Positions 3,539 through 61,139 are shown, numbered from the stretch's first letter. The stretch is 64,000 bases of DNA from Pelagomonas calceolata (GCA_918797485.1 CAKKNE010000004.1:248001-312000), one strand, 5' to 3'. Made by a program: numbers and translations. The notes: generated from the letters alone by a model not told the origin.

Positions 3539-3559
3539 CTAGCGTAGCGACATACTAGC
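3539..3559 (-). promoter_or_regulatory. CTAG-bracketed promoter palindrome, variant
   Basis: GCTAGTATGTCGCTACGCTAG, ~130 nt upstream of argH. Confidence 0.45.
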
Positions 3560-3674
3560 GATGCACGGTGGGCCCGGGGGAGCGGAGGGGGTACGGGGGA
3601 CCCCGCGACGTGACTAGCCTGAGCCATAGTTTACTACACCCACTTGCTTACCTAGTACGGAAGGACCCCACGTC

Positions 3675-4600
3675 TCACGGCATCGTCAGCCCGCCGTCGA
3701 CGGAGAGGCTCTGGCCCGTGACGGCGTCGGACGCCGGCGCCGCGAAGAAGACGCACGCCGTCGCGAAGTCTTCGACGGTCGTCGTCTTGCGGAGGGGCGT
3801 CGCTCCGGCGACGTAGCCGAAGACCTCGTCCGTCGTTAGCGACGACGCGTCCGTGCGCTCGAGCAGCCCGCCCGCAACGAGGTTGACGCGCACGCCGAGC
3901 GGGCCGAGCTCGGCGGCCAGATTGCGTGTTACACTCACGAGCGCGGCCTTCGCTGCGGAGTAGTCGTAGTACCTGTGTGGAAATCAAATTTCGGGGCCCC
4001 ACGCGCGTCGATGCTGTCTCCGTCAACCTAACTCACTGGTTGATTTCAACGCAGCTAGTACGTCACGACGGGATTATAAACCAGGTTCGTGCCGACGTTA
4101 ACAATCTTGCCGTACTTGGTGGCCTCGAACGACGGCAGGCACGCCTGCGCGGCGTTGACGGCGCCCTGCACAGTGCCTCGCATCTGCGCGTCGATGCTCT
4201 CCCACGACACCGTTTTGAGCGAGGCCGACGCGGACGTCGGGTCGAACTTATATGATTGCAGCGCGTTGTTGACGAGGACCGAGACCTTGGCGCCGAAGTG
4301 GGCCTCGGCCGTCGCTACCAATGCATCCATGTCCGCTTTCACTCTTACATCTCCGTAGACCGCCAACGCCTGCTCGCCGATCTCGGCGACCACGGTTTCG
4401 GCCTTTTCCTTGCTCTGAAAGTAGTTCACGACGACCATGGCGCCCTCGCTCGCAAAGGTTCTCGCGAGCTCGGCGCCGACGCCACGCGAGGCACCGGTGA
4501 TCACGACGAGACGGCCCGCGAGCTGGCCGGCGGGAGCGGAGCACTCGTCCGCCGCCGACGACACGACGGCGGCCATCGATAATAACAGGCGAGTGAGCAT
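3675..4600 (-). CDS. short-chain dehydrogenase/reductase (FabG-like), 2 exons: 4600-4062 and 3972-3675
   Basis: TGASRGVG and VNNA motifs; splicing out 3973-4061 gives NPVVTYYDYSAAKAA (catalytic YxxxK) and the C-terminal VTGQSLSVDGG. Confidence 0.9.
3973..4061 (-). mobile_element. introner element forming an 89-nt GT-AG intron
   Basis: TIRs CTGTGTGGAAATC (3973) and GATTTCAACGCAG (to 4054); TSD GTACTA(C)G supplies the GT donor; removal restores the SDR frame. Confidence 0.9.
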
Positions 4601-4769
4601 GCTGAAGTGCAGTTTTGTGGCAACTTTTGTTGTGAGCCTTGCAAAGCCACACAACTTGTGGACAATGTGGCCTTCAATAAATGGTAGTTCGCAATTGCAG
4701 ATTTGAAAAACTATGCCTAATTCACGGCTAGCTCCTGAACCTTCACTGGCCACAAAAATCCTATAATCC

Positions 4770-4789
4770 CTAAGGTGTGACACACTAGC
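4770..4789 (-). promoter_or_regulatory. promoter palindrome, variant
   Basis: GCTAGTGTGTCACACCTTAG, 170 nt upstream of the SDR gene. Confidence 0.45.
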
Positions 4790-4879
4790 ACCGAGGCTGA
4801 GGCGTCGTTACGCAAACGACGCGCTGCTGATGGAGATACAATAAAGTTACCAAATAAAAGGAGAAAGCGAACGAGCGGC

Positions 4880-5956
4880 TCAAGAACGCCACCGCCGGAA
4901 CGGGTTCCAAGACGACGACGCCGCCGCCGGCCACGGCCGCTCGTTCGCCGCCTTCGCCGCGTCGTCGATCACCGCCAGGAGCGCCTCCATGAATTTCCCC
5001 GTCGCCGTGTTGTGGATGCTGTGACCGCCTTCCACGAACTCCCTTACCTGAACCGAAGGCAGGCGCTTCTGCATGTCCCGAATGCCGTCCGGTCCGTCCC
5101 AATCCGTCACCGTGCCTCCAAACGCCGTGGGCCCCGCGACCCAGAGGTGGACCGAGAACGGCAATGCTTTGTGCGAAGCGAGGGCGTCCCAATTGCGAGT
5201 CGCAGCATCGCAGGCCAGCACGTTCGCGCGCGCGAGCTGCTGCGCTTGCGGGTTCACGTCGCTCCAGTAGCCGCCGCCGGCGATGGGCCGGACCCGCGAC
5301 CCGAGCCAGCCCTGGACGCGGTCGGCCTCGTAGTGCTTCTCGAGGGCCGCGACCGCGTCCTTTTCACTCGCAAATTCCCTATCAAATTCTTCGATCTCCT
5401 CGGTCTCCTGGGGCCGCCGGCCCCACTTCTCGCGGTTCCGGCAGTCCATGTCCTCGACGACGACCGCCGCGAGGCGGTCGGGTGCTTCCCGCGCGGAAAT
5501 CGCCGCCACGGCCATGGCCACGCGGCCGCCCATGCTGTGGCCCACGAGGATCCAAGGTCTCTGAACGCCGTGCTGGACCTCGACGGCGTGGATCACGTCC
5601 CTCGCCAGCGCCTCCGTGGAAAAGCTCGCCGGATCACCGAGCGGGCTCTCGCCGTGGCCGCGCTGGTCGAGCGCCAGCGCGGGCAGGCCCGCCTCGTGCA
5701 GCTTCGGCAATACCTGGTGCCACGTCTGCTTGCTGCTGTCGAGGCCGTGTACCAATACAGTGGTGGGCGTGTTCCTGCCGCGTACGCTCGAGGCGAGCGG
5801 CACGCGCTTATCGCCGCCCAGCGAGAGCGCGCTCGACTGTTGTCCGAGCAGCGCTGCTGCCGGCGCCCATCTAGCAAGCTGCCACAGTCTTGGGCTGGCC
5901 ATGGTGATGAGTGCTACGAGATAGCCAACGAGAGCGCCGACGAGGAGCTGGCGCAT
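4880..5956 (-). CDS. alpha/beta hydrolase (ABHD11/YbfF-like)
   Basis: LVHGL, DQRGHGES, GHSMGG nucleophile elbow, C-terminal GGHSIH. Confidence 0.88.
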   Translation of the reverse strand: MRQLLVGALVGYLVALITMASPRLWQLARWAPAAALLGQQSSALSLGGDKRVPLASSVRGRNTPTTVLVHGLDSSKQTWHQVLPKLHEAGLPALALDQRGHGESPLGDPASFSTEALARDVIHAVEVQHGVQRPWILVGHSMGGRVAMAVAAISAREAPDRLAAVVVEDMDCRNREKWGRRPQETEEIEEFDREFASEKDAVAALEKHYEADRVQGWLGSRVRPIAGGGYWSDVNPQAQQLARANVLACDAATRNWDALASHKALPFSVHLWVAGPTAFGGTVTDWDGPDGIRDMQKRLPSVQVREFVEGGHSIHNTATGKFMEALLAVIDDAAKAANERPWPAAASSSWNPFRRWRS

Positions 5957-6039
5957 GTATTTCTATACAGCACTGCACGAATTTGGCGTACAAGCCGCAG
6001 CGAGCTCTGTCCGCAGCTTTTGCTGCCTTGCCAATGGTT

Positions 6040-6063
6040 GCTAGTGTCTTACAGGACGCTAGC
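6040..6063 (+). promoter_or_regulatory. promoter palindrome
   Basis: GCTAGTGTCTTACAGGACGCTAGC between divergent genes. Confidence 0.7.
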
Positions 6064-7173: not shown

Positions 7174-7197
7174 GCTAGTGTCTTACAGGCCGCTAGG
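7174..7197 (+). promoter_or_regulatory. promoter palindrome
   Basis: GCTAGTGTCTTACAGGCCGCTAGG upstream of the Hsp70-like gene. Confidence 0.7.
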
Positions 7198-7453
7198 CCA
7201 AAAAATATAAAGCCACGGCGAGCTGCAACTTTCAGCGTGCGACGACGACACTGAGTTGTTGAAGCATTGCGTGCAGTGCACAGTGCAAGGTTGCGTTGCG
7301 TGCAGCCAGAAGCAGCATCGCTGCGGAGCGTATCTTCTGAGCGAGTTGCACAACTCACCACAGAGCTGCTCCGCGTGGCATCCGCACGACAGCAAGATTC
7401 ACGCGATCGGAGCGCAATCGCGCACCAAGGCCTAGACAGCGACAGCAACAAGC

Positions 7454-9281: not shown

Positions 9282-10343
9282 CTACGCCTCGGCCGGGTCC
9301 CAGAGCCGGATCGTGCCGTCCTCGGACCCCGTGGCGAAGCGGCCCGCCTTCGCGTCGGGGTGGAAGCGCACGCACCTCACGGGACCGCAGTGCCCCTTGC
9401 GCTCCAATGAAACCTTGCCCGTCTTCACGTCAATCACGTGGACGCAGAGGTCACTCCCGACGTCGCCTACTTTTTTCGCACCCTTCTCCACACCCAGGGC
9501 GCCCTGGCGCGACCCCCCATGTCTTCCACCACCGACGACGATCTCTTTGCCGTCGTTCCTGAGAGAAGCCCCTCCTTCTTCCCGGAAGTGGACCGGACAA
9601 TCGATGACCTTCTTCGTAGACGTCCAGCGCACGGCGTCGACCAAGTGGACCTGTTCGCCCGAACAGACCGTTAACGTAGGCCCGAGAGCCCCATTCGTCA
9701 GCTCGAGGTCCATCACAGCATCTTTACCAACATCGATAATAGCAATAGGGTCATCACCGTCCACGCGCGGATCTAAAACACTGACTTTCCCGTCCGCCGC
9801 GCCGCAGACCAGTAACCCGGCTTCGGTCCAAGCGCACTTGTTAACGGTAACTTTCCTGCCATCACTATCGTCTCTCGCTCCAAACAAGCGCTCCGGGCCC
9901 GAAGCACCGAGGCCCGCCTCGACGTCGAAGACGCGTGCCGCGCCTTCTTTGCCCACCGTCGCGAGCAGTCTTCGGTCACTCGAGAAGTCCACACATTTCA
10001 CGACGTGGCGATGATCCAACGTAGCGAGGCAGTTGCCCGTGACCGCGTCCCAGACCTTGGCGGAGAAGTCGCCGCTCCCCGTGGCGCACAAGCGGGCCTC
10101 GGAACACAACTTCGCGGACCACACAGCCCCTTTGTGCCCCGCGAACGTGCCGATCCAGTCGCCCGTCGTCGCGTCTCTCAGCATGGGCTGGCCGTCCAAG
10201 CAGGCGCTCACGAGGAAGTAGCCGTCGGGCGTCTCGGGGCTGAAGGAGACCTCCGCTAAGGGCCGCGTGTGGCCGGGGCAGACGATGGGCGGCGGGCCCT
10301 TGGAGGAGTGCTCGCTGAGCAGTTCTTGGAGGGCGGCGGCCAT
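9282..10343 (-). CDS. STRAP: serine-threonine kinase receptor-associated protein (STRAP/UNRIP), WD40
   Basis: CPGHTRP, YFLVSACLDGQPMLRDATTGDWIGTFAGHKGAVW, GHCGPVRCVRF...ATGSEDGTIRLW; ATG at 10343. Confidence 0.9.
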   Translation of the reverse strand: MAAALQELLSEHSSKGPPPIVCPGHTRPLAEVSFSPETPDGYFLVSACLDGQPMLRDATTGDWIGTFAGHKGAVWSAKLCSEARLCATGSGDFSAKVWDAVTGNCLATLDHRHVVKCVDFSSDRRLLATVGKEGAARVFDVEAGLGASGPERLFGARDDSDGRKVTVNKCAWTEAGLLVCGAADGKVSVLDPRVDGDDPIAIIDVGKDAVMDLELTNGALGPTLTVCSGEQVHLVDAVRWTSTKKVIDCPVHFREEGGASLRNDGKEIVVGGGRHGGSRQGALGVEKGAKKVGDVGSDLCVHVIDVKTGKVSLERKGHCGPVRCVRFHPDAKAGRFATGSEDGTIRLWDPAEA

Positions 10344-10545: not shown

Positions 10546-10569
10546 GCTAGTGTGTTACAGGCCGCTAGC
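10546..10569 (+). promoter_or_regulatory. promoter palindrome
   Basis: GCTAGTGTGTTACAGGCCGCTAGC upstream of STRAP. Confidence 0.7.
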
Positions 10570-12054: not shown

Positions 12055-12078
12055 GCTAGTGTCTTACAGGCCGCTAGC
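12055..12078 (+). promoter_or_regulatory. promoter palindrome (consensus copy)
   Basis: GCTAGTGTCTTACAGGCCGCTAGC between divergent genes. Confidence 0.7.
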
Positions 12079-12417: not shown

Positions 12418-13158
12418 ATGCGCAGCGCCGCCTGGCTCCTCGAGGCTCTCGTCGTCGCGTCGACCGCGCGAGGCGTCGCCGGAGTTACAGACGGAGCCGG
12501 CTGCGGCGCGACGTGCGGCGAGCGCGACGCGATCGTGGGGGCGGACGGTAAGTGGTCCGCGGTGCGCCGGGCGGTTCTCGACGACAACAAGGACTGGCCG
12601 ACGCGCGAGGAGAAACGCTTCGGCATCACGCTCCGTCTCCCGCGCGTGCCTGATGGATTTGATACGGACAAGACCCACGTCTCGCGTCCGGCGTTCTTTA
12701 GGACGGACGCGTTTAAATATTGTGTGGACGCGCGGCGGCCGTGGCCGACGGGCTGTAGCTCTATCGGTTCCTGGTCGCTGGTGCTGGAATTGACGTCCTA
12801 TGCCGCGACAATAACGTCAGCATTACTCTTCGCGTTCACGGGCGACTTCCTGGCGAACCGGAAGCTGTTTTCGCGGTTCTTGCTCTTCATCGCCTACGAA
12901 TGTCTGCTGGTCGCCGTGAAGGTGGCGTATCAATTGTTAAGGGACACGCCGCCGTTCGAAGTGAAGTTGCAAAGGAAGCGGGTGAATTTCTTAGGGAGGA
13001 AGATCGTCGCGGACGAGCCGGATGAAAGGAAGGAGGATAGTGATGATGAATCTGAAGAAGATGAAGCCCGACACCCGTTGATCGTGCACGACCGCGACCC
13101 GGAGCAGAACCTGGAAGCGTTACGGAACCCGGACGCGTACCGGCAGAACTTGGCCTAA
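12418..13158 (+). CDS. hypothetical membrane protein (signal peptide plus 2 TM)
   Basis: ATG ORF with signal peptide, two hydrophobic helices and an acidic tail; promoter palindrome upstream. Confidence 0.65.
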   Translation: MRSAAWLLEALVVASTARGVAGVTDGAGCGATCGERDAIVGADGKWSAVRRAVLDDNKDWPTREEKRFGITLRLPRVPDGFDTDKTHVSRPAFFRTDAFKYCVDARRPWPTGCSSIGSWSLVLELTSYAATITSALLFAFTGDFLANRKLFSRFLLFIAYECLLVAVKVAYQLLRDTPPFEVKLQRKRVNFLGRKIVADEPDERKEDSDDESEEDEARHPLIVHDRDPEQNLEALRNPDAYRQNLA

Positions 13159-13192
13159 GTATCTATTACCCCTACTTATACGCAGCAACTAC

Positions 13193-16100
13193 TCACTGCA
13201 TCTTCTTCTGCGCCAGCTGGCAGAGGAACTTGACGCCCTTCAGCCAGTCCTTGTGCGCCGCCCAGTGGCTGTTCACGAGCGCGACCTGGACGGCCGACGC
13301 CGTCGCGTAGTCGCGCTGGAGCACGGCCGACACGAGGCGGTTGCACTGCACGATGACGTCCTCCTCGACCTGGCCGTAGGTCAGCTTCTCTTTGAGCTTT
13401 TCCGCGGCCTTACTACCTTCCGCGAGCTGGCGCTTCTCGGAGCCGTTCAGCGGGCATTGCGAGAGGTGCTGCACGAGCTGCTGCAGGCCCTGGGCGACGG
13501 CCGTCGCCTCCGGCGACTGGGCCACGGGCGCCGGCGGCGGCGCGGGCGCGGGCGGCGGCGCCGGCGCCGGGGCCGGCGGCGGCGCCGGGGCCGGCGCGGC
13601 CGTGAACCCGGCGCTCGAATACTGTGGTTGTTGCGGCGGCGGCGCGGCCCCGAAGCTCTGGGCCGGCTGGTCGAAGCCCTGGCTCGTCACGGGAGCCGGC
13701 GGCGCGAGGTTCGGCACGGAGTTCTGGCGCACGTGCGTCGGCATCGGAACCGAAGGCGCTTGCGTGATGGGCATGGGCATGGGCGCGGGCGCCGGCGTTG
13801 GTTGGACCGGTGCCGTCCGCACGGGCATCGGGACCGCCGTAGTAGGTTGCGGCGAAAACGCTTGCGTCGGCTGCGGCGAAAAAGTCTGAGGCTGCGGCGA
13901 GAAGGGCTGCGCCTGGGCGTAGGGGTCCGGCTGCGCGGGCTGCGGCGCGAAGGGCATCGGCGCCGGCGCCGGCGCGGCCCGCGTGAACGCCTGGGCCGGC
14001 TGCGCAACGGGTTGGGGAGGCGGGTCCCAGCGCGTCTCGCCCGTGTCCGCGTTGGCGTAGTACGTTCTTCCACTGGAAGGATCGCTGTGGGCCTGCCAGG
14101 GGTGCGGCAAAGCACCATCAGCTGGTTGCGCCGGCACGATGCCCGTGATCGCGGAAGAAGGTCTGACATCAGTAACTGGAAAGGAGGGTTGCACGTGATC
14201 ATAGGCGTTCGACGCCGCGCGATGCAACCGATCTAGTAACAACCTTGATGAATCATCTTGCGCTCCACAATATTTCGTGGCTGCGGCGATCTCGCCCTCG
14301 GCCGCGAGCTTTTCAGAGTACTGCGTGAACAGGTCCACGACCTCCGGTCCTAATGATCCTAAGGCTTGCGTCGGGTCCTGGTTCGGGTTCGAATCGTCCC
14401 TCGCGAAGACCGTGACCTTTTCTACCAAGTCCTGTAGTCCTGCAGTGTTCTCCTGTTTCTTGTAGTCGCTAATCCAAAAACTGACAGTCTTGGCGACGTT
14501 GACGGCGCACATGTAGCACAGCGAGGCCGCCGTCTGGTCGCGCTTCTCGTTCTCCAGGCGTTGTCCTAGGGCCTCGCAGAGTTGCGGGAACTCCTCGCTT
14601 TTGCCGTAGGTAGATAAAATAGCCAGGGTCTCCTCCCACTTATTCAAATCCGCGGTCTGGACGAGCTGATCGAGCTCGTTCGTGATGATGGCCCGGACGA
14701 CGCCGAGGAAGGGTCGTTTCCGAGCCGCTTTCTCGAAGTATCTCGCCCTAGTTTTCTCCCAGAGCTCGGCACCGCCGCACGACGCCAGCAACAGAGCGTC
14801 GGCCAGCGCGCCGTTCTTGAAGCAGCCCTCGACGGCGGCGTCGAAGTTCCCTACCAGTAAAGCTCGCTTCACGTCCGCCTCGGCCGCAGGTGTAAGTGGA
14901 GACTTCTCCTCGATAGATCTGTCAGAAGAGATGGACAACGATTGCGTTCTAGTAGCAAAAACATCTTCCGCCGACGTGTCGTCAACTGCAGGAGACGACG
15001 GCGTCGACGAGGGCGGCGGCGGCGGTGCGAACTGCTGCGCTATTTTTTGGGCGTCATACCCTAAGCATTCGAGCAGCTTCTCGCGGGCGTTCGGCTCGAA
15101 GATGAGCGCCATGAAGGTCCAGGTCCTCTTGTCTGCTGAGGTCTTTGCGGTTGCGACTTTGGCGTCGCAGAAGGCCGCATAATCCTGGGACGCTAGAGCG
15201 GCTTCGAACGCGCGACTAGCGTTCACCAGCGATCGATCTTCGACGTGCCTTCCTAGCTTTACTTGGGCCTTGGATTTGGACGAGAAGGACGCTAAGCGAC
15301 CACCAAAGCCGAAGGCGACACCGGAAGGCCTTCGGAGCCACTTCGGGGCCGTCCCGGAACCCGACGAGATCGAATGGATCTGCACGCTGCGATCAAAAGC
15401 GCAGGTCGCCAGGACGCCTTGCTGGGACGGACTCCATGCCACTTGATACCTTCTTCCTGCTGCGGCCTTGCCGAAGCCCCCGTTGCCCGGGGCAGAACCA
15501 CCAAATAAATCGGACGCGCCAGAACCAGAAGCCGCGCCGAAGTTCGTCGCTTGGGGAGAGCCCGGTTCCGCGCCGCCGCCCGGCAGTTCGTAGACGGCCT
15601 GCTGCGTGGACAGGTCCCACAGCAGCGTCTTGTTGTCCCGCGCGCAGGACGCGAGTAACGCGGTGTCGTCCGGGCACCAGTCAATACTCAGAATACCTTG
15701 CGTGTGGCCCCGTAACGTGCCGAGGGGCATTGTTGTTGATGACCGTAAATCCCACAGCCGCACGACGGGGTTGCCGTCGTCTCCGGAGGCAGTGGCCAGA
15801 TGGAGACCTTCTAGTGGATTCCAGGCAACGTCACTCACAGGACTCCTGGAGGCCGCGTCCCGTAACTCGCACCAGGGCTTCTTCTGCCTTAAATCCCACA
15901 CAATCGTCGCCCCCGATTGACTGGCCGTGGCGAGGATGTGGGACACTTGCGAGTTCCAGGCGACCCTCGTCACTTCGGCCGAATGTTTTGCCGCGTTCGG
16001 GGGCGGCGCCGGCACGAAGACCGTCGGCGCCTCGGGCCGTTCTAACGATGCAACAAACACCTCCTTGTCGGCGCCTCCTGATGCTAATAAATGCGCAGAG

Positions 16101-16813: not shown

Positions 16814-16832
16814 GCTAGTTATAACACACTAG
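16814..16832 (-). promoter_or_regulatory. promoter palindrome, short variant
   Basis: CTAGTGTGTTATAACTAGC between SEC31 and the LRR gene (divergent). Confidence 0.5.
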
Positions 16833-17028
16833 AGATCCCCCAAAACAGCACTGTTGTGCCGCTAGATCACTGCAGTAGCCGGTGCAGACGCATACGGTGC
16901 GAGATATTACTTGTTGGGACAGCTGCGTCCGGTGCGCAAAGCAGGAGCTGCTAGTTTTGGCGCCCTGCACTGTTCACAGCAGTCTCAGCCAGGGCAGCGC
17001 TATCTGCGCAAGCGCTATCACTGCAGCA

Positions 17029-23078: not shown

Positions 23079-23098
23079 CTAGTATGTTGCTACACTAG
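23079..23098. promoter_or_regulatory. promoter palindrome, variant
   Basis: CTAGTATGTTGCTACACTAG between divergent genes. Confidence 0.45.
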
Positions 23099-23271
23099 AT
23101 GATCAGCCCAAAAATCGCGGCTTTGGCTGTCTGCGCCAATATCGCTGCCTTCCGCGGCTCTATAATACGCTCAGACATTCATAAATCACAGCGCTGCAAC
23201 GTGAGAGCACCGCGCTGCAAGCCGCATAGCTTTTAAGCAGCAGCCTCGCCTCGCCGACGCCGCGCGCCGCC

Positions 23272-25762: not shown

Positions 25763-25786
25763 GCTAATGTCTTACAGGCCACTAGG
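25763..25786 (+). promoter_or_regulatory. promoter palindrome
   Basis: GCTAATGTCTTACAGGCCACTAGG between divergent genes. Confidence 0.65.
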
Positions 25787-27849: not shown

Positions 27850-27872
27850 GCTAGTGTCTTAGTCCGCTTAGC
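27850..27872 (+). promoter_or_regulatory. promoter palindrome, variant
   Basis: GCTAGTGTCTTAGTCCGCTTAGC upstream of ORF 28131. Confidence 0.55.
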
Positions 27873-28130
27873 TAAAGAGAGGGACAAGATCACGTGAAGC
27901 AGGCCAGCAACTGGCCATTCGACGAACGGCGAAGGACAAAAAACGGGCAGTCGTCCCTGCTGAGGCGCCTCGTGAGTTCGCGAGAATTTCAGCCCGCGCG
28001 ACGCCCTAGAACTGGTGAATTCTTGTTTCGCTAGATATCCTCGTTCTCCGGCCAGAGCGCGCCCGCCCGCGCACCCGCGTAACTCTCTGCGGGCGTGTAA
28101 GCCTGTAAGCGACCGCGACTGTCCTCCACC

Positions 28131-34819: not shown

Positions 34820-34995
34820 GCAATGGGCTATTTTGCTGCAGGCAGCACTGCAGGCAGCGCTGCGTCCCTGGTAGCCGCACGGATGGCGCCGACGGCTGCA
34901 GGGGTCTCAAGCGCACCGCTGGCTGCGTCTCGCACCACGTATACGTGCACGACTGCTTGCTATGGCCTGGTGAGCCCTTTTGTGAAGACGGCCGA

Positions 34996-35019
34996 GCTAG
35001 CGGCATGTGAGACACTAGC
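34996..35019 (-). promoter_or_regulatory. promoter palindrome
   Basis: GCTAGTGTCTCACATGCCGCTAGC upstream of the cyclophilin. Confidence 0.7.
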
Positions 35020-35834: not shown

Positions 35835-35858
35835 GCTAGCGTCTTGTAAGACACTAGC
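35835..35858 (-). promoter_or_regulatory. promoter palindrome (near-perfect dyad)
   Basis: GCTAGTGTCTTACAAGACGCTAGC upstream of the glycosyltransferase. Confidence 0.7.
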
Positions 35859-38478: not shown

Positions 38479-38565
38479 CACTGGCACAGATGCTTATGTT
38501 ATACAGCTTCCGTTTGAATTATAACCCACGATCAAAGCAAAAAAGCGTTTTGGGCAGCCAGGATA

Positions 38566-38589
38566 GCTAGCGGCATGTAACACACTAGC
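38566..38589 (-). promoter_or_regulatory. promoter palindrome
   Basis: GCTAGTGTGTTACATGCCGCTAGC, centred in a ~210-bp divergent gap. Confidence 0.7.
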
Positions 38590-40400: not shown

Positions 40401-40427
40401 CTTAAACTGTTATGTGTCACAAAATTA

Positions 40428-41464: not shown

Positions 41465-41489
41465 CCTAGTGTCTTTACAGGACGCTAGC
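41465..41489 (+). promoter_or_regulatory. promoter palindrome
   Basis: CCTAGTGTCTTTACAGGACGCTAGC, centred in a ~195-bp divergent gap. Confidence 0.7.
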
Positions 41490-44500: not shown

Positions 44501-46032
44501 CGTAACCAGAGGGGCCAGGCAGGTGGCGTATATGCTCGGTTAGCCGTCGGTGGAGTTTTCCTGCAGTCGCGCTTTGACGCACCAAGGATCGCAGAGTGCG
44601 CCCTAAAAGTCGCTGCCATGGCCCAGCGCTGCGTGTGCGGTAGGAGCGAGGGTGGCGACTACGTGAAGTGTGCTGGCGGCGGGCGCTGTCACGGGTTCGT
44701 GCATCGTCGCTGCGTCGGATTAAAAGCTGACGAAGATGTTCCTGAAGGTTGGCTCTGCCCTTTGTGCGACACGAGCGGTGTTGCCGCGAAGCTCTCGGTT
44801 CACGGCGACGGCCCGCTGGCCAAATCTTCGCCTCTCATCGGTCGGGTCCTACTTCAGGCGCAAGGTGACGACGACGACGACGGCGCCGCTCAGGCGCCAC
44901 TGTTGTTGCGTGCGGTCGGCGCGAGAAAACAGCGCGGCGGAGAAGTTCTAGTGCGCTGCGTAGCCCTCTTCGGCGAGGGCGATGAGACGTATGAAATTAG
45001 CGAGGCGACCGCTCGCCGCGCTGCAATTAGGCGCGAGACGGCTGAAGCGCAGGCCATGGTGGCGATGCACGCCAGGGGCGGCAAGTACACCTTCCACACG
45101 ACTACGGAAGATTGCAATGTGTGCGCGCATTGCCTTGGCCTGTGTGGAAATCAAAATTTTACGGCGCGTTCGTGCTGAATCATCGCGTCGTCCTCCACGC
45201 CATCGACACGACGCCTGCTCGATGGCGTGGCGATGCCGGTTCCTCGCCGCTCGACCGAGCCAGGTCGGCCGCGTCATCGCCGAGAAATGACTTAGTGACG
45301 AATTGTCGTGCACCCGACACACTGATTGATTTCCACACAGGCCTCGATAAACCTAGCAATGGCGGCACCGGCACCCTTAAACGAGCGTGCATAGCGAAAG
45401 ATGATGAGCGCGCCGTAGCATTATTGTATCTCGCCTCGGGCGCGCCACCGCCGGGCGGAGGTCAGTGGGCAACGCACGGCGCCGCGCCGCCGCCGGCCAC
45501 GACACCGCAGCGCAAACACGTCTACTGGGACAATGATCGCGGGGAGCCCGACGACTCGGACGATGAAGAAGGCTTCGTCAAGAAGGATGCGCGCGTCGTC
45601 GCACCCTGGATCGACGGGCAGTGGTATTCTGCGACGATCGTACACGTGGGTCACCGGACCGCTCGCGTGGCGTTCGAAGATGGAACGATTCACACTGTGC
45701 AGCGCTCCGAGCTCCTCGAGGACGACCGCTCCTCGCGACGAAGCGTCGCAAAAAAGGTCGTCACTCCGGCCAAGCCGCGGCCCGCGCCACCGCCTCCGCC
45801 GCCGCCGCCGCCGCCGCCGCGGCCGACGGGGCCGTGCGCGATCTGCATGTCGACGATCGACGACGGCGCGCACGTGCTGCAGTGCGGCCACGCCTTCCAC
45901 GCGAGCTGCCTGCGCGACATGTCGGATGTTGTGCGCATCGCGTCGGCCACGAGACGCTCCCGAGGGGTCGCGTGCCCGCTCTGCCGCAAGGTGACGCGCG
46001 CCGAAGTAGGCGTCGACGCCGACGAGGCCTAG
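41573..46032 (+). CDS. multidomain chromatin protein: SAM-like, Tudor, MBD, PHD, partial CXXC, Tudor, RING; intron 45132-45340
   Basis: Tudor VGALVDADFQ..HYFPAII...YRVVFDDG; MBD LASGW...DRYFHPPDGGKQLRSMAEV; PHD CVC...C..C...H..C...WLCPLC; DCNVCAHCLDKPSNGG; RING-H2 CAIC...CGHAFHASC...CPLCR. Confidence 0.85.
45132..45340 (+). mobile_element. introner element forming a 209-nt GC-AG intron
   Basis: TIRs at 45140 and 45340; eroded TSD GCCTTGGC/GCCTCGAT; spliced HCLDKPSN matches intron-less HCLDAPRN in the neighbouring paralogue. Confidence 0.9.
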
Positions 46033-46171: not shown

Positions 46172-46193
46172 GCTAGTGTCTTACGGCCGCTAG
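46172..46193 (+). promoter_or_regulatory. promoter palindrome
   Basis: GCTAGTGTCTTACGGCCGCTAG upstream of the second PHD/RING gene. Confidence 0.7.
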
Positions 46194-46361
46194 ATCTGCT
46201 CTCAGGTCGAGAGAGAGCAGCGGTCCCGCAGGGCGAAAAACGAAGCGCGGAGGGTACCGAACAAACCAAATCATAGTCCATCTCGAGCGCTGCTGCGGCG
46301 CGAACCTAGCAGCTTCAGGCAGCTGGGTTTTTTGCATTGCTTTTACAGAGGCAGAGGCGAA

Positions 46362-50705: not shown

Positions 50706-50809
50706 ACTGTGCCCTGTGCTTAAGTATTACAAGACCCATAATTTGCCCGACGGCGTTGGAGGGAGAAATTCCATGTTACGACGAAAAACAAAATGGACGA
50801 GCCCGTACG

Positions 50810-51729
50810 CTAGTCCTCCTTCCGCGGCGCGTACGCCCGGATCTGCCAGGCCAGCATTCCGTTCAACGTGAACGACGCTCCATACCCCAGCAGCAGCACC
50901 GCGTCGGCGCTCTCTACCGCTGTCGTGAACAAGCGCGCGGCGTTGCCGAGGAGGCGCATTTGAACCTGTGGTGGAAATCAACCAGTGAGTAGGTGCACAG
51001 TAATTTCTCGGCGACAGCGCGGCCGTGATGACTGCATCAAGAGGGATGTAAGACCCACACCGCCACGCCATCGAGCAGACATCGCGTCGATGGCGTGGAG
51101 GCATGATTCAGCCGTATGCGAGAAGCGCCGCGAAGTTTGATTTCCACACGCGTCCGCGCCGTCGCGGCCGAGAGCGCGCCGGTCTCTTGCCGCCGCCGGT
51201 TCTTCAGGATCTGCGGCACGAGCGAGCCGATATTCGCGACGAGGGACACGGACGACAGGACCCACGCGTAGGCCAGGGGCGTCGCGGCGCAGAGGGCGAC
51301 CGCGCCGGCGCCGAGCGCCGCGCTCATGACGCCGCGCGTCCCATTCTTCTCGAACCCGTAGGCCAGCAAACATAAGACCACGTTCTGGATGAGTACGAGC
51401 ACCTGCTCGCCGTAGCTGTGCAACGAATAGCTCAGCTTCACAGAGTACGCGATCGACGCGATGAAAACGAGGACGTCGAGCTCGAGCGACAGCAAGGAGA
51501 GGCCGTCGGCGCTCTTGGCTTTCAGTACGTTGAGGATCTGGGGCACTTTGAGCAACGCGGCGCCGGCCACGATGCAGAGGGACGCGGCTCGGCTGACGGC
51601 GTCCAACGCGCACGGCAGGTAGTAGTCCAGTTTTCGCACGCAGCCGACCGGGTCCAGCTCCACGAAAAGTTGTTTGAGGCCTTCGAGGAAGATCGGCCAG
51701 CACTCGTCGCTGAAGACGAGGAGAGGCAT
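50810..51729 (-). CDS. MPDU1: mannose-P-dolichol utilization defect 1-like PQ-loop protein; intron 50966-51159
   Basis: LLKVPQILNV..KSADGLS, YGE, VPQILKN...TGALSAAT|VQMRLLGNAARLFTT. Confidence 0.88.
50966..51159 (-). mobile_element. introner element forming a ~194-nt GC-AG intron
   Basis: TIR remnants at 50966 (CTGTGGTGGAAATC) and ~51151; TSD no longer recognisable; splice restores the MPDU1 alignment. Confidence 0.8.
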
Positions 51730-51946: not shown

Positions 51947-51970
51947 CCTAGTGTCTTACAGGGCGCTAGC
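51947..51970 (+). promoter_or_regulatory. promoter palindrome
   Basis: CCTAGTGTCTTACAGGGCGCTAGC between divergent genes. Confidence 0.7.
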
Positions 51971-52317: not shown

Positions 52318-53227
52318 ATGTCACAGTACCCCGTTGCCCAGGTCGTCGGCGGACAGCAGGGCGGCGTCGTCGGAGTAGTGAGCCAGCCCTCGGACGTGAA
52401 CCTAGATATCGGCGGCCGCGTGGAACGGATGCAGAACGAGCTCGACGTGCCGGAGCAGATCGTGCGCGATTTGTTGAGCGTGGCGGGCGCGGACATCGTC
52501 GTGATCGCCGACGACAGTGGCTCGATGGGCGCCGTCGCGAACTACGTCACGCGGTCGACGCGGTGGACGGAGTCGGGAGCCGTGTGGAAACCAAATGTCG
52601 CGACGTGGGCCCGGTAGCTGGCATAACATAACTCACCGGTTGATTCCACACAGGTTGCGCGATACGCTCCAGAAGCTCGCGCACATGCTTTTGGTCGTGG
52701 ACCACACGGACGGCTTCCACATCCAGTTCTTGAACGATCCGACGTGGCACGAGATCCGCAGCGGCTCCCAGGTCGAGACGCTGTTCTACGGGCGGCAGCC
52801 CAAGGGCCGGACGCCGCTCGCGACGCGACTGAGACCGCTCCTCAGCGGCCAGTGGCACCCCAAGGGCCACGGCGCCGAGACGGACTTGATATTACTGATC
52901 ATGACGGACGGCGAGCCGTCGGACTGCTCCTTTTCGGAACTTAGGCAGTTAGTCGGCCAGAAGTCCCCGAAAGTGTACTGCACGTTCATGATGTGCACCG
53001 AGGAGGACGACGTCGTCGAGCAGTACAACAAGTCGCTGGACCGCCTGCCCGGCGTGGACATCACCGACGATTATGTGAGCGAGAAGAAGGAGGTGGAGAA
53101 GCTGGGCAACAAGCTGAGCTACTACAAGTGGATGGCCAAGGCCGTGCTCGGCGGTAAGATGCCGAAATACGACCACATGGACGAGAAGCGGGCCGGCGGC
53201 GGCGGGGCGTGCTGCGTGATCGCGTGA
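52318..53227 (+). CDS. von Willebrand factor A domain protein with C-terminal CaaX (CCVIA); intron 52572-52653
   Basis: MIDAS DDSGSM, GRTPL, IMTDGEP; spliced TRWTE|LRDTL. Confidence 0.85.
52572..52653 (+). mobile_element. degenerate introner, 82-nt GT-AG intron
   Basis: GT plus 6 nt, then CCGTGTGGAAACC...GATTCCACACAG; TSD eroded (GTCGGGAG/GTTGCGCG). Confidence 0.85.
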
Positions 53228-53601
53228 GGCTTCCGTCCTATTTTTTTTATCGCGGGCGGCGGCGGCGGCGCTGCGCATCGGCTGAGGCTTTCTTTCATCA
53301 TCTAGGCCGTAAGCAACTTCTCGGGAGGTGTCGCCGCGTAGTCGCCGCGCGTTCGGCTCAGGCTTTCTTTTCATCTGGGCCGTGAGTTCACTTCTCGGAG
53401 GGGTCCTTGTAGTTCTTTAGAAGGCCGCGCGTTGCGCGTCCGATGCGAAGTGTGCCTCGACTGCGCGCAGAGCATTGCAAAGCAGTCAAGCACCATTGAC
53501 CAAAGAGCACACATCCGTGTGAAAAGAGAGGCCTCCTAAGTTTCATACTTCCCGTCGAATTCTACTTATGCGCGCGGCCCGCGCCAGAAGAGTCATAATA
53601 A

Positions 53602-54378
53602 TTAGTCCTCGGCGGCGGCAGGAGGAGGAGGCTTCTTCCCGTGCAGGTCCCCCGCGACCTCGGCCGGCAGCTCGAACGTGGGATCGGACGGCAGCCGCTC
53701 CGTCCGCCATTTATAGGTCGTGTGGTCCTGGCCCTCGGGGTAGAACGGCGCGACCGGGCACTGGCGCAGCTCTTCCTCTTCGTCGGCCTCGGCCTTGAGC
53801 GCCGCTTCGGCGATCTGGGCCATCGCAGCTTCAACAATTTCGGGGTCGGTCCCGAGTTCGGCAGAAGCGCCGTGCAGGGCCAGGCCCTCGCGTTTGACAC
53901 ACTCAAGCACGAGGTCGCGGTTCGCCCGCAGCTCGTCCGACGCGTACTTCAGGGCCCGCGGCGCCTGCCCCACGGCCGCCCGCACAATCTCCTCGTCACT
54001 GCGGAACGAAACAGGCGCCCGCGCGAGCGCGAACCCGTCCCGTTGGACAGCCTTCAGCACCACATCGCGGTCGTCCGCCAGCAGAGGTGTTGTCGAAGGC
54101 TCGTCCTCGTAGGGGCGCTCCCCCTCGCAGAGGGTCATTTCTTCTTTCTCCTCAATTGCTTTGCGCAGCGCCTCGTTCTTCGCGACGTGGTCGGCGACCC
54201 ATGCCGGCTCGCCACTAGCTTCCGACTTCTTTTTGTCTGCACCGTACATACTGTCGAGCCATTCTCTCGTGGGCCGCTTGAGCTCCGGCTGGTCCTTCGA
54301 GAGTCGCGGCGGCGGCGCGTTCTCCATGAGCTGCGTCATGCGCGCGAGGGCGTCGCTTGCGTCGAGGATGGCGGCCAT
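53602..54378 (-). CDS. DUF4116-repeat protein
   Basis: DRDVVLKAVQRDGFAL, DEEIVRAAVGQAPRALKYASDELRANRDLVL. Confidence 0.8.
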   Translation of the reverse strand: MAAILDASDALARMTQLMENAPPPRLSKDQPELKRPTREWLDSMYGADKKKSEASGEPAWVADHVAKNEALRKAIEEKEEMTLCEGERPYEDEPSTTPLLADDRDVVLKAVQRDGFALARAPVSFRSDEEIVRAAVGQAPRALKYASDELRANRDLVLECVKREGLALHGASAELGTDPEIVEAAMAQIAEAALKAEADEEEELRQCPVAPFYPEGQDHTTYKWRTERLPSDPTFELPAEVAGDLHGKKPPPPAAAED

Positions 54379-54522: not shown

Positions 54523-54546
54523 GCTAGAGTCTTACATGACGCTAGC
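54523..54546 (+). promoter_or_regulatory. promoter palindrome
   Basis: GCTAGAGTCTTACATGACGCTAGC between divergent genes. Confidence 0.7.
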
Positions 54547-56325: not shown

Positions 56326-56349
56326 CTGCCAGTGGCAGAGCACCCGCCC

Positions 56350-59116: not shown

Positions 59117-59138
59117 GCTAGTGTCTTACAGCCGCTAG
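59117..59138 (+). promoter_or_regulatory. promoter palindrome
   Basis: GCTAGTGTCTTACAGCCGCTAG, 206 nt upstream of the P4H gene. Confidence 0.7.
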
Positions 59139-59461
59139 ATAATGCATCTTGGCGACCCTTAGGAGCCGATGCGCTTTGATATATCCAGGCGCTTTAGGTC
59201 GAGAATTATTGGTAGCGTGTCTACGTACGGGTTGAACGATGGTCACGCCACGGCCCCACAAGGCGCTGGCAGTCGTTGTAACGACGTCCGCCGGCACCGG
59301 AAGAACTCGTCCATGGAGAGTGGCATTGCTCTCAGACGATTTTTTATTCTTCGGAGATCGACCAGTCGGATTCGCGCTTGAGTGAGCGCGCACAGATAGC
59401 GCCAAATCGTTTCAGTCTACCGCCGAAACGCCGCCAAAAAACGCAAAAATACCGATAAAAA

Positions 59462-59481
59462 CCTAGCGGTAAGACACTAGC
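59462..59481 (-). promoter_or_regulatory. promoter palindrome, short variant
   Basis: GCTAGTGTCTTACCGCTAGG, 207 nt upstream of ORF 59688. Confidence 0.65.
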
Positions 59482-59687
59482 AAGCTCTGCGATCCGGCGC
59501 CTTCTGGCTGCCCCGGACGCGTAGGGCCAGCTGGACGCGCGCCAGACACGTGCGGCAAGCGAGGAGGCGTCTGCCAGACACGAGTTCATTGGGGCTGCAA
59601 AGGGGCAGCGTAACGATTTCATACATTACACCTGCTGCCTGCTGCCTTGGCTGCGGCCAGGCTGCCAGCCACAGCCACACAGCATAG

Positions 59688-60167
59688 ATGGCCGTCTGCT
59701 GCTGCTTTCACCGGACACCGAAGAGCCGGCTTTGTAGCCTCCTATTCACATTGGCAATTGTCGTCGCGCTGCACGTGTTCGCGTTCTTCGCGAAATTCCA
59801 CGCCAGTCGGCAAGTGCACCATTGCAACAATTACGGCTGCGGGTCCAAGGAACATTTTTACCTAGCAGTCATCGTGATGTGTTTCGTCGCGGAGTTTCTT
59901 TATCTCCTCGCGTTTGCCTTCCCCAAGTACATTTGCCCGGTCGACCCCCGCGAAGAGCCGCCGACAATTCCGGCCACGAGCGACGAGGTCCGCGCGATCT
60001 ACCGACCGATGGCCGCGTGGTATCGGGCGCCGGCGCGCGACGCGCTGCGGAGGCATAACGGCGAGTTTCCGCCGACGTCCGAGGCGCTCTTGGCCTGGAA
60101 GTCGTTCGAAGCCGTGACGACGGCGTTCCTCGAAGATCAGCCTGCGGGCGCCGCCGCCCGAGTTTGA
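59688..60167 (+). CDS. hypothetical 2-TM membrane protein
   Basis: Two hydrophobic helices; promoter palindrome about 207 nt upstream. Confidence 0.6.
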   Translation: MAVCCCFHRTPKSRLCSLLFTLAIVVALHVFAFFAKFHASRQVHHCNNYGCGSKEHFYLAVIVMCFVAEFLYLLAFAFPKYICPVDPREEPPTIPATSDEVRAIYRPMAAWYRAPARDALRRHNGEFPPTSEALLAWKSFEAVTTAFLEDQPAGAAARV

Positions 60168-60209
60168 TACCGTTTCATGGCGTTCCGTCGCCTTCACTAC
60201 GTAAATTCA

Positions 60210-60629
60210 TTATTGCCTAGCCTCCGCCTTCAGCCGCTCCCGCAGGATCTCGACGATCGCCTTCTGCGTCCGCTTCCGGAGGACCTCGGCGCGCGGCTCG
60301 AGGTCGCGCTTCAGGTCCCAGTTCGGGTCGCGGGGCACGACGTTCAGCGCGCCCTCGGGCTCGTCCGCTTGAATGCGACTGAGCTCCGCGTCGAAGGCGC
60401 TCGGCGCCGGCGCCGGCGCCGCCGGCGTGTCTCCGTCGTCCTCGTCCGCAACCGGCGGCGGCGGCGGCGCCTGGAGCTCGGGGAGCGGCGGCGGCTCGAA
60501 GGCCGGGGCGAGTTCCTCGGACTGCGGCAGATAATTGCGGAACTTCAGCTTCTTCTCGCCGCCGACCTTGTCGTCGCGCGCGGCCCGCAAAGCCTTGAGC
60601 CTCGCTTTCCGCTCGGCGGCGGACTCCAT
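60210..60629 (-). CDS. CWF18: pre-mRNA splicing factor Cwf18/CCDC12
   Basis: AAERKARLKALR, LKFRNYLP, PRDPNWDLKRDLE...LRKRTQKAIVEILRER; ATG at 60629. Confidence 0.9.
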   Translation of the reverse strand: MESAAERKARLKALRAARDDKVGGEKKLKFRNYLPQSEELAPAFEPPPLPELQAPPPPPVADEDDGDTPAAPAPAPSAFDAELSRIQADEPEGALNVVPRDPNWDLKRDLEPRAEVLRKRTQKAIVEILRERLKAEARQ

Positions 60630-61116
60630 GCCTGCGTGAGCGGGGGACGTTAGGACGGCGCGGCAGGCGGTCGCTCCCGCGCCGTCAGACATATGCACCC
60701 CCGACAATTGGTCTCCCCCGCCTTTGACAACCGAGTAAGACCACAGAAAGGCCAAAAACGGATAACACTGGACGGGGTCTGCTGCTGTGCGGGCGCTCGG
60801 ATTAGCTTGGCCAGTACGATCACAACACATACAGTGTTCATATGACACGCATGAATGAAGTTGTGGGCATTTGTCTTCATCGCGCTTTTCGCAGCAGTGT
60901 TTTGGGGTGACGTCTTCTCTGGTTTGCGGACGCGGCGGCGCGCCGCGGCGACGGCGTGAGGCTGTGCTGCAGCAGTGGGCGAGCCGTCCGCGCCGGCCCG
61001 AGCGATGCGTGCAGTGCGCGGCAGCGCTTCAGAACGACGAATCAACGTATGCGGTCGCGCCTTGCGCAACAAAGCCCGTCGCGCCGGCGCTTTTTGGCAA
61101 TTATTTTTGGTGGCGA

Positions 61117-61139
61117 GCTAGCGGCCTGAAGACACTAGC
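61117..61139 (-). promoter_or_regulatory. promoter palindrome
   Basis: GCTAGTGTCTTCAGGCCGCTAGC between CWF18 and myosin (divergent). Confidence 0.7.

What the first reader, a model, noticed from the sequence alone, without database searches (positions are those of the whole stretch)
3539..61139. A ~24-bp quasi-palindrome (GCTAGTGTCTTACAGGCCGCTAGC) marks most promoters in the window
Seen: about 20 copies, at 3539, 4770, 6040, 7174, 10546, 12055, 16814, 23079, 25763, 27850, 34996, 35835, 38566, 41465, 46172, 51947, 54523, 59117, 59462 and 61117. Each lies ~60-270 nt upstream of its nearest start codon. I saw none in CDS or in convergent (3'-3') gaps such as 13158-13193, 40400-40428, 50705-50810 and 53227-53602. 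Short divergent gaps carry one copy, centred in the two shortest (38566, 41465), while long divergent gaps can carry one per gene (34996+35835; 59117+59462, both ~206 nt from their ATG). Either orientation occurs. The GCTAGTGTCTTAC half is strongly conserved, while the spacer to the second CTAG varies by a few nt. It is missing before the pseudogene-like loci (19262, 56350) and also before ORFs starting at 285, 1578, 9047 and 31578. Inference: a lineage-specific, long core-promoter or nucleosome-depletion element serving functionally unrelated genes, probably bound by a dimeric factor and possibly a domesticated transposon relic. I know of no description of it, but cannot search the literature.
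Basis: partly seen in the sequence, partly recalled or inferred. Interest (0 to 1): 0.9.

Follow-up and report, generated by a model that had tools for sequence, protein, structure and literature searches.

The report
Two-way promoter box of Pelagomonas genes
A two-part DNA word of about 28 bases sits in front of most genes in this stretch of an abundant ocean alga, with RNA 5' ends about 10-30 bases beyond its edges. It therefore likely serves as the alga's main transcription start signal, working in both directions, and I found no description of it in the papers I could search.

Summary
Fifteen copies of (c)TTGCTAGTGTCTTAC(a)-N2-3-CGCTAGC(t) are unmistakable. One more (27850) is supported, two are marginal (4770, 16814), and two (3539, 23079) are not found by a profile. 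All 20 lie outside my gene models. All 11 divergent gaps carry one, against 1 of 10 convergent gaps.

A metagenome scan gave 120 further non-redundant loci with 137 copies. One copy is genic and two are in convergent gaps. The median distance to a start codon is 175 nt. Unselected flanking positions are conserved, and the sequence beyond them is unrelated. Proteins on those loci are 90-99.8% identical to Pelagomonas calceolata proteins.

RNA data add the new result. Seventeen 5'-end estimates at 8 copies lie 9-42 nt (median 22) beyond a motif edge. At 38566 they lie on both sides, 56 bp apart.

Best reading: a core-promoter element at about -30 that works in both directions, read by an unknown factor. 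I found no evidence for a transposon relic. The dimeric-factor and nucleosome-depletion ideas could not be tested. My paper searches found no description of the motif.

The parts
6040..6063 (+). Clear motif copy in a divergent gap (83 / 248 nt to the ATGs)
   Evidence: Profile score 36.0 bits. Pile-up of minus-strand RNA fragment ends at 6011, 29 nt from the left edge (run X22).
7174..7197 (+). Clear motif copy in a tandem gap, 256 nt before ATG 7454
   Evidence: 32.9 bits. Transcript contigs begin at 7216 (X1) and 7219 (X3), 19-22 nt beyond the right edge.
10546..10569 (+). Clear motif copy in a tandem gap, 202 nt before ATG 10343 (minus-strand gene)
   Evidence: 32.8 bits. Contigs end at 10527 and 10536; read-end pile-ups at 10524 and 10537. 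These lie 9-22 nt from the left edge.
12055..12078 (+). Clear motif copy centred in a 150-nt divergent gap (62 / 64 nt)
   Evidence: 36.9 bits. Both flanking genes are transcribed, but their 5' ends were not among the rows listed.
25763..25786 (+). Clear motif copy before a + strand gene whose first intron is 25944-26188
   Evidence: 24.8 bits. Intron supported by 25 reads. 5' end not resolved.
27850..27873 (+). Partial copy (box A only), before the small + ORF 28131-28538
   Evidence: 12.6 bits, E 0.0084, not in the training set. Weak + strand RNA downstream.
34996..35019 (-). Clear motif copy, 252 nt before ATG 34743 (minus-strand gene); first of two in a 1342-nt divergent gap
   Evidence: 32.9 bits. 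5' end not resolved: the contig stops at 34783 at low depth.
35835..35858 (-). Clear, nearly perfectly palindromic copy, 227 nt before ATG 36086
   Evidence: 33.1 bits. X1 contig begins at 35875, 17 nt beyond the right edge.
38566..38589 (-). Clear motif copy centred in a 212-nt divergent gap; best case of two-way use
   Evidence: 32.6 bits. The minus-gene contig ends at 38544 and there is a read-end pile-up at 38524. The plus contig begins at 38600. The contig 5' ends are 56 bp apart and flank the motif.
41465..41489 (+). Motif copy with a 1-nt insertion in box A, centred in a 194-nt divergent gap
   Evidence: 20.1 bits. The contig ends at 41441, 24 nt from the left edge.
46172..46194 (+). 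Clear motif copy, 167 nt before ATG 46362
   Evidence: 30.4 bits. No RNA was laid here.
51947..51970 (+). Clear motif copy in a divergent gap
   Evidence: 29.8 bits. No RNA was laid here.
54523..54546 (+). Clear motif copy in a divergent gap
   Evidence: 29.4 bits. No RNA was laid here.
59117..59139 (+). Clear motif copy, 205 nt before ATG 58911 (minus-strand gene); first of two in a 776-nt divergent gap
   Evidence: 30.6 bits. No RNA was laid here.
59462..59481 (-). Short-spacer copy, 206 nt before ATG 59688
   Evidence: 21.3 bits. No RNA was laid here.
61117..61139 (-). Motif copy in a divergent gap (286 / 264 nt)
   Evidence: 24.7 bits. No RNA was laid here.
3539..3562 (.).
   Evidence: Absent at E <= 10. 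Even so, argininosuccinate lyase (ASL) gene RNA ends pile up at 3507 and 3517, and + strand spliced contigs begin at 3582 and 3594.
4770..4793 (-). Degenerate copy, marginal
   Evidence: E 1; 2 mismatches in the 13-mer and no second CTAG.
16814..16837 (-). Degenerate copy, marginal
   Evidence: E 1.3. The X1 contig of the + gene begins at 16855, 18 nt beyond. Contigs of the minus gene stop 116-151 nt short.
23079..23102 (.).
   Evidence: Absent at E <= 10. The minus-gene contig ends at 22950, 129 nt away.

Best explanation
The motif is likely a core-promoter element centred about 30 bp upstream of transcription start sites. An as yet unknown sequence-specific factor would read it and would place RNA polymerase II on either side of it.

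Shown here:
- It is a two-part word. Box A is (c)TTGCTAGTGTCTTAC(a). A spacer of mostly 2-3 free bases follows. Box B is CGCTAGC(t). Box B is the inverted copy of the first 7 bases of box A.
- It lies only in gaps that contain a gene's 5' end.
- It occurs in either orientation with respect to the gene.
- RNA 5' ends lie about 10-30 nt beyond its edges, and at one clear copy they do so on both sides.

Inferred:
- A protein binds it.
- It positions the initiation complex in the way a TATA box with its flanking TFIIB sites does.
- Stable RNA appears only where a gene follows.
For: 1. Placement in the window. 0 of 20 copies are genic. 11 of 11 divergent gaps, 6 of 15 tandem gaps and 1 of 10 convergent gaps carry one. 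The profile scan gives no credible hit in coding sequence.

2. Placement in other DNA. Among 137 copies on 120 non-redundant metagenome loci (252.6 kb, 62% predicted genic), 1 is genic, 2 are in convergent gaps, 29 in divergent gaps and 21 in tandem gaps. The other 84 sit on contigs too short to classify. In loci of 3 kb or more, gaps that lack an exact pattern match still carry a looser copy in 4 of 11 divergent gaps, 4 of 11 tandem gaps and 0 of 27 convergent gaps.

3. Tie to the 5' end. The median distance to an ATG is 175 nt (n = 112), with a mode of 150-200 nt. In 21 tandem gaps the distance to the downstream ATG is tight (116-289 nt in 20 of 21). The distance to the upstream stop ranges from 40 to 673 nt.

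4. RNA 5' ends. The data are stranded polyA reads (X21, X22) and contigs from two other studies (X1, X3). Seventeen estimates at 8 copies lie 9-42 nt from the nearer motif edge, median 22. Measured from the motif centre they lie 20.5-53.5 nt away, median 33.5. At 38566 the contig ends are 38544 (minus strand) and 38600 (plus strand), 56 bp apart. Contigs stop short of the motif, not inside it, so the breaks are not assembly breaks at a repeat. Pile-ups of raw-read ends agree with them.

5. Selection on the word. Positions that the scan pattern did not fix are conserved. CG precedes the second CTAG in 123 of 136 copies, C follows it in 85%, and T occupies positions -1 and -2 in 76% and 69%. Beyond that, composition is at background. 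Loci whose proteins are only about 90% identical to the reference proteins (L024, L065) keep the exact word.

6. TATAAA occurs only 4 times in 64 kb.
Against: - No experiment or footprint ties any protein, or polymerase II placement, to the motif.
- The 5' ends come from ordinary RNA-seq and assembled contigs, not cap-selected data. They are lower bounds on transcript length and good to perhaps 10-20 nt.
- Only 8 of 20 copies were resolved, and 2 of those 8 (3539, 16814) are degenerate copies.
- Five contig ends lie 116-242 nt from the nearest copy: 16663 and 16698, 22950 and 22837, and 34783. Most belong to contigs that are plainly fragments. The contig ending at 22950 spans the whole coding region, yet it sits 129 nt from the copy at 23079, which is itself degenerate.
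- Four copies inside the laid regions gave no listed 5' end (4770, 12055, 25763, 27850).
- I found no base-composition difference between flanks that face a gene (141) and flanks that do not (44). What sets the productive direction is therefore unexplained.
- About a quarter to two fifths of my gene models have no clear copy.
- My gene map comes from ORFs and codon scores, and it splits some intron-bearing genes.
Confidence: 0.6

Rival explanations
1. The motif is the site of a general regulatory or barrier factor, in the manner of yeast Reb1 or Abf1. The factor would keep promoters free of nucleosomes and insulate neighbouring genes. Start sites would then be set by something else and only happen to lie at the edge of the open region.
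For: The placement data fit this reading equally well. Also in its favour are the lack of any orientation rule (8 forward against 13 reverse in tandem gaps, counted), the spread of 5' ends over 9-42 nt, and the absence of a direction signal in the flanks.
Against: The 5' ends hug the motif, with a median of 22 nt from the edge. At 38566 the two start regions are only 56 bp apart. That leaves no room for a separate core promoter between the site and the start. From what I recall, sites of such factors in yeast lie further upstream, about 60-150 bp.
Confidence: 0.22
2. The motif is the site of an ordinary gene-specific activator that controls one co-regulated set of genes.
For: It is a long, specific word with inverted-repeat ends, as many transcription-factor sites are.
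Against: It stands before 22 (clear copies) to 28 (all copies) of my 37 gene models. These have unrelated functions: an Hsp70-like protein, a DEAD-box helicase, a Sec31-like WD40 protein, glycosyltransferases and RING/Tudor proteins. Expression levels of motif-bearing genes range from silent to high within a single run.
Confidence: 0.08
3. The motif is the relic of a mobile element, such as a solo terminal repeat or a very short MITE, that accumulated in promoters and has no function of its own.
For: High copy number and inverted-repeat ends.
Against: - Nothing is conserved beyond about 4 nt on either side.
- Only 4 locus pairs share more than 300 bp.
- No target-site duplication exceeds shuffled pairings for k = 2-8.
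- Exclusion from convergent gaps and coding sequence is near complete.
- The word stays exact in loci whose proteins differ by 10%.
Confidence: 0.04
4. The motif acts in RNA, as a 5'-UTR hairpin or a processing signal.
For: The inverted-repeat ends could pair.
Against: At 8 copies the transcripts begin beyond the motif. Typical copies fold no better than shuffles (z -0.03 to -0.8). There is no Rfam match in the window.
Confidence: 0.02

Closest known systems
TATA box with flanking TFIIB recognition elements (general eukaryotic core promoter; recalled knowledge)
   Same: The centre lies about 30 bp upstream of the RNA 5' ends (median 33.5 nt). The total length of 24-28 bp is close to the stretch covered by a TATA box plus both TFIIB elements.
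   Different: - It has no TATA-like sequence. It is GC-rich with two CTAG cores.
- It has two parts separated by a spacer of variable length.
- It is used in either orientation, and at one copy on both sides.
- It stands before roughly 60-75% of gene models here, which I recall is more than the usual share of TATA promoters.
CGCG element TCTCGCGAGA of vertebrate TATA-less CpG-island promoters (PMC6192621; I read the abstract and section 27)
   Same: It is a palindromic promoter element that drives divergent transcription. Predominant start sites lie 28 and 51 nt from the element on its two sides, and none lie within it.
   Different: It is 10 bp long against about 28 bp here, and the sequence is unrelated. 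It serves a subset of housekeeping and ribosomal-protein genes. It is methyl-sensitive. Its sufficiency was shown by reporters, and nothing of that kind has been done here.
HomolD box of fission-yeast ribosomal-protein genes (listed among elements able to direct initiation in PMC8871863, passages read; the rest recalled)
   Same: A non-TATA word that takes the place of the TATA box in TATA-less promoters and directs assembly of the initiation complex.
   Different: It is an 8-bp word limited to one gene class. As I recall, it is bound by Rrn7. It is not known to work in both directions.
Oomycete initiator plus flanking promoter region (INR-FPR); recalled, not read here
   Same: A long, lineage-specific core-promoter word in another stramenopile.
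   Different: As I recall, it overlaps the start site and does not lie upstream of it. The sequence is unrelated.
Early-promoter words of giant viruses (for example AAAATTGA of mimivirus; recalled)
   Same: A single word in front of a large share of the genes of a compact genome.
   Different: Those words are AT-rich and short, and a viral polymerase reads them. Here the genes are cellular, contain introns, and lie on a contig of 5.3 Mb. The 4 matches in viral contigs are chance hits that lack box B.

Membership tests
TATA box | Consensus TATAWAWR | tested here: not met
   The motif holds no such word. TATAAA occurs 4 times in 64 kb.
TATA box | Lies about 25-35 bp upstream of the start site | tested here: met
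   Distance from motif centre to RNA 5' end is 20.5-53.5 nt, median 33.5, from 17 estimates at 8 copies (using). The ends come from RNA-seq, not cap-selected data.
TATA box | Bound by TBP | not testable with these tools
   No binding data, and no genome is held from which to examine TBP.
Palindromic two-way core-promoter element (CGCG-element type) | Divergent start sites on both sides, none inside the element | tested here: met
   At 38566 the contig ends are 38544 (minus) and 38600 (plus). At the degenerate copy 3539 the ends are 3507/3517 and 3582/3594. Only these two loci gave both directions.
Palindromic two-way core-promoter element (CGCG-element type) | Sufficient to drive transcription in a reporter | not testable with these tools
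   Needs an experiment.
Palindromic two-way core-promoter element (CGCG-element type) | Consensus TCTCGCGAGA | tested here: not met
   The consensus is unrelated.
MITE or other transposon relic | Conserved body between terminal repeats, or a longer parent repeat | tested here: not met
   Composition is at background beyond about 4 nt on either side. Loci share no longer repeat.
MITE or other transposon relic | Target-site duplications | tested here: not met
   131 copies, k = 2-8, offsets 0-4: no more matches than in shuffled pairings.
Transcribed 5'-UTR element | Lies inside the transcript | tested here: not met
   At 8 copies the RNA 5' ends lie beyond the motif.
General regulatory / barrier factor site | Lies in a nucleosome-free promoter region and depletes nucleosomes | not testable with these tools
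   No chromatin data were available.
General regulatory / barrier factor site | Separate core promoter between the site and the start | tested here: inconclusive
   The median of 22 nt from motif edge to 5' end leaves little room. The precision of the ends is limited.

The most novel reading that the evidence does not exclude
In Pelagomonas one two-part word of about 28 bp has taken over the role of the TATA box for most polymerase II genes. A lineage-specific factor reads it and nucleates initiation complexes on both sides. The compact genome would thus run largely on a single shared, intrinsically two-way core promoter that is kept letter for letter across diverged relatives.
Probability: 0.45. 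Interest if true: 0.85.

Novelty: new variant of a known kind. Interest (0 to 1): 0.8.

Why it matters
[quoted passage not shown] None of the three Pelagomonas papers I examined mentions a promoter or a motif in its main text.

If the reading holds, it would matter in several ways:
- A single long word at most promoters would be an unusual way to organise a eukaryotic core promoter.
- It would make the factor behind it directly fishable by DNA pull-down.
- It would give a ready minimal two-way promoter for genetic tools in a group that, as far as I know, has none.
- It would let start sites and gene boundaries be called from sequence alone, in genomes and in ocean metagenomes.
- It bears on how compact genomes manage shared divergent promoters.

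Tried and rejected
- Whole genome: none is held for this window, so I made no genome-wide count.
- Earlier notes of this scan: nothing on this genome or on this word.
- Cruciform or hairpin reading: rejected.
- RNA families and tRNA genes in the window: none found.
- Direction signal in the flanks: none seen in 5-nt bins of base composition, comparing 141 gene-facing with 44 non-facing flanks. No initiator consensus is evident at the 17 5'-end estimates, though these are too few and too imprecise to rule one out.
- Orientation rule: none. In tandem gaps 8 copies point forward and 13 reverse (counted).
- Viral contigs: 4 matches, all at 40-43% GC and lacking CGCTAGC. I take them as chance hits, and they serve as a negative control.
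- Footprint between the related loci L033 and L070: the regions did not align.
- Orthologues of window genes among the fetched loci: none. I therefore could not test conservation of a copy's position at one and the same promoter.
- Protein atlas look-up of the argininosuccinate lyase: gave no taxon.
- Paper searches that found nothing relevant: the motif string and its reverse complement (only chance primer matches); Pelagomonas with promoter and motif; Pelagomonas with transcription start site (one preprint checked, which has no motif); pelagophyte with core promoter; Aureococcus with promoter motif (viral promoters only); palindromic motif with bidirectional promoter and microalga (a chloroplast study); Pelagomonas with cis-regulatory (no paper).

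Full report
**What the window is.** The window is 63% G+C and densely packed with eukaryotic genes: argininosuccinate lyase, an Hsp70-like protein, a DEAD-box helicase, a Sec31-like WD40 protein, glycosyltransferases and RING/Tudor proteins. The genes have a few short introns, seen as spliced reads. No whole genome is held for it.

Two window proteins are on record letter for letter on a contig of 5,314,222 bp and in the MMETSP transcriptome collection. Proteins encoded on the motif-bearing metagenome loci fall in 90%-identity clusters with proteins named Pelagomonas calceolata. Those proteins lie on contigs of 3.9-6.28 Mb, and the pairwise identity is 90.0-99.8% in 7 pairs. The genome paper gives six nuclear contigs and 63% G+C (PMC9481584, passages). 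That the window itself is P. calceolata is an inference, not something a call states.

**Is the motif real?** Yes.
- The 13-mer GCTAGTGTCTTAC has 16 matches at up to 2 mismatches, against 0.75 expected (0 of 100 shuffles reach 16).
- With a second CTAG required within 11 nt, there are 17 hits at 16 places, against 0.36 in shuffles.
- CTAG as such is under-represented, at 132 against 217 expected from base composition. Seventy-four of the 132 lie in the 23% of the window that is intergenic.
- A sequence profile built from 148 aligned copies (alignment A2, model R1) was run over the whole window without filters. It finds 15 copies at E <= 3.5e-5, all of which were among the 148 training sequences. 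It finds 27849 at E 0.0084, which was not in the training set. Copies 4776 and 16815 score only E 1 and 1.3. Copies 3539 and 23079 are not found at all. Five further hits at E 0.7-6.6 lie in coding sequence and are noise.

**Anatomy.** After I dropped three redundant loci (L008, L064, L098), 120 loci remain, totalling 252,641 bp. None overlaps the window except at an unrelated dispersed repeat. They hold 137 copies at up to 2 mismatches.

Positions that the pattern did not fix are nevertheless conserved:
- CG stands before the second CTAG in 123 of 136 copies.
- C follows it in 85% of copies, and T follows that in 54%.
- T occupies position -1 in 76% and position -2 in 69%; C occupies -3 in 49% and G occupies -4 in 56%.
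- Beyond these positions the composition is at background.

The second CTAG starts 5 nt (40 copies) or 6 nt (77 copies) after the 13-mer, more rarely 4 (7) or 7 (8).

The word is therefore (c)TTGCTAGTGTCTTAC(a), then 2-3 free bases, then CGCTAGC(t). Box B is the inverted copy of the first seven bases of box A. The rest is asymmetric. As single-stranded DNA, typical copies fold no better than shuffles. The four matches in viral contigs have 40-43% G+C and none has CGCTAGC. They show what chance matches look like.

**Where it lies.** I made a rough map of 37 gene models from ORFs, a codon score and the RNA evidence. On that map:
- 0 of 20 copies lie in the 49 kb of genic sequence.
- 11 of 11 divergent gaps carry at least one copy.
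- 6 of 15 tandem gaps carry one.
- 1 of 10 convergent gaps carries one. That is 27850, which precedes a small + strand ORF.

Some tandem 'gaps' without a copy are in fact introns (26842-27055), or they lie beside a transposon-like repeat. Clear copies stand before 22 of the 37 models, and all 20 copies stand before 28 of them.

In the metagenome loci, 1 copy is genic, 2 are in convergent gaps, 29 in divergent gaps and 21 in tandem gaps. The other 84 are on contigs too short to classify. Gaps in loci of 3 kb or more that lack an exact pattern match still carry a looser copy in 4 of 11 divergent, 4 of 11 tandem and 0 of 27 convergent cases.

The median distance to an ATG is 175 nt (n = 112). In tandem gaps the distance to the downstream ATG is tight (116-289 nt in 20 of 21), while the distance to the upstream stop ranges from 40 to 673 nt. 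Single copies serve divergent gaps of 176-456 nt. In tandem gaps the orientation is forward in 8 and reverse in 13 (counted).

**Where transcripts begin.** Runs that hold the window include stranded polyA RNA reads (X21, X22) and contigs from other studies (X1, X3). Reads whose first mate lies on the + strand come from minus-strand RNA. The depth over gene 9282-10343 and the strand of the spliced introns both show this.

5' ends relative to clear copies:

| Copy | 5' ends seen | Distance from motif edge |
|---|---|---|
| 7174-7197 | contigs begin at 7216 and 7219 | 19-22 nt |
| 10546-10569 | contigs end at 10527 and 10536; read-end pile-ups at 10524 and 10537 | 9-22 nt |
| 6040-6063 | pile-up at 6011 | 29 nt |
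| 35835-35858 | contig begins at 35875 | 17 nt |
| 38566-38589 | minus contig ends at 38544 (pile-up at 38524); plus contig begins at 38600 | 22 (42) and 11 nt |
| 41465-41489 | contig ends at 41441 | 24 nt |

Two degenerate copies behave alike:
- At 3539-3562 there are pile-ups at 3507 and 3517, and + strand spliced contigs begin at 3582 and 3594.
- At 16814-16837 a contig begins at 16855.

Together these are 17 estimates at 8 copies. They lie 9-42 nt from the edge (median 22), or 20.5-53.5 nt from the centre (median 33.5).

Against the reading:
- Contig ends at 16663/16698, 22950/22837 and 34783 lie 116-242 nt from the nearest copy. Most belong to contigs that also stop inside the coding region at their other end, so they are fragments.
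- Copies 4770, 12055, 25763 and 27850 gave no listed 5' end.
- No RNA was laid beyond 41800.

The contigs stop short of the motif, not inside it, and raw-read pile-ups agree. The ends are therefore not assembly breaks at a repeat. These are ordinary RNA-seq ends, not capped 5' ends.

**Mechanism.** The data fit an element centred about 30 bp upstream of the start, the position of a TATA box. It can serve both directions, and at 38566 the two start regions are only 56 bp apart. TATAAA is rare, at 4 in 64 kb. At 7174 a TATAAA lies between the motif and the contig start, too close to that start to act as a -30 box.

I infer that a sequence-specific protein or complex binds box A and box B and positions polymerase II on either side. 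I also infer that stable RNA is seen only where a gene follows. The flanks show no base-composition signal that would set direction. I put this reading at 0.6.

The main rival, at 0.22, is a barrier or nucleosome-depleting factor site with start sites set otherwise. I rate a gene-specific activator site, a transposon relic and an RNA element as unlikely, for the reasons given under the rivals.

**Comparison with what is known.** The element works most like the vertebrate CGCG element TCTCGCGAGA. That element is palindromic and sufficient for divergent transcription, with predominant starts 28 and 51 nt away and none inside it (PMC6192621, abstract and section 27). It also resembles non-TATA words that replace the TATA box, such as the fission-yeast HomolD box (PMC8871863, passages). 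It is a member of none of these, because the sequences are unrelated. It is also much longer, has two parts with a flexible spacer, and stands before most genes and not just one class.

**Novelty.** My paper searches turned up no description of the motif. The main texts of the genome paper and of two transcriptome papers on this alga do not contain the words motif, promoter, palindrom or upstream. Subscription journals and supplementary files were not covered. I rate it a new variant of a known kind (core-promoter elements) and of high interest.

Noticed in passing
window 3971-4054, 32795-32993, 36849-36936, 45139-45340, 51058-51149: A dispersed repeat of 85-200 bp with terminal inverted repeats of about 15 bp (CTGTGTGGAAATCAA ... 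TTGATTTCCACACAG). It also occurs in metagenome loci L040 and L041. The copy at 3971-4054 coincides with an intron (3966-4054, GT..AG) spliced out in contigs of X1 and X3. The copy at 36849-36936 (88 nt) lies where ORF 36086-37051 gives way to ORF 37044-37541 in another frame. It looks like an 'introner', a transposon that creates introns. I recall these being described in the pelagophyte Aureococcus, but I did not read that here. Reads from many other copies pile up on these places.
   Followed up: partly
window 3582-4733, + strand: A spliced + strand transcript starts about 20-32 nt beyond the degenerate motif copy at 3539. It runs antisense across the minus-strand ORF 4055-4600, which is silent in runs X21 and X22.
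   Followed up: no
window 41573-45178 and 46362-50705: Two long neighbouring + strand genes share several segments of 73-79% nucleotide identity, and both give weak Tudor-domain hits. They are likely tandem paralogues, each with its own motif copy (41465, 46172).
   Followed up: no
Part of it also matches locus L029.
   Followed up: no
window 34754-34821: A perfect 35-nt direct repeat offset by 33 nt, just upstream of ATG 34743.
   Followed up: no
window 7206-7211: One of only four TATAAA words in the window lies between motif copy 7174 and the contig starts at 7216/7219. It is therefore about 5-13 nt from the RNA 5' end, too close for a classical -30 TATA box.
   Followed up: partly
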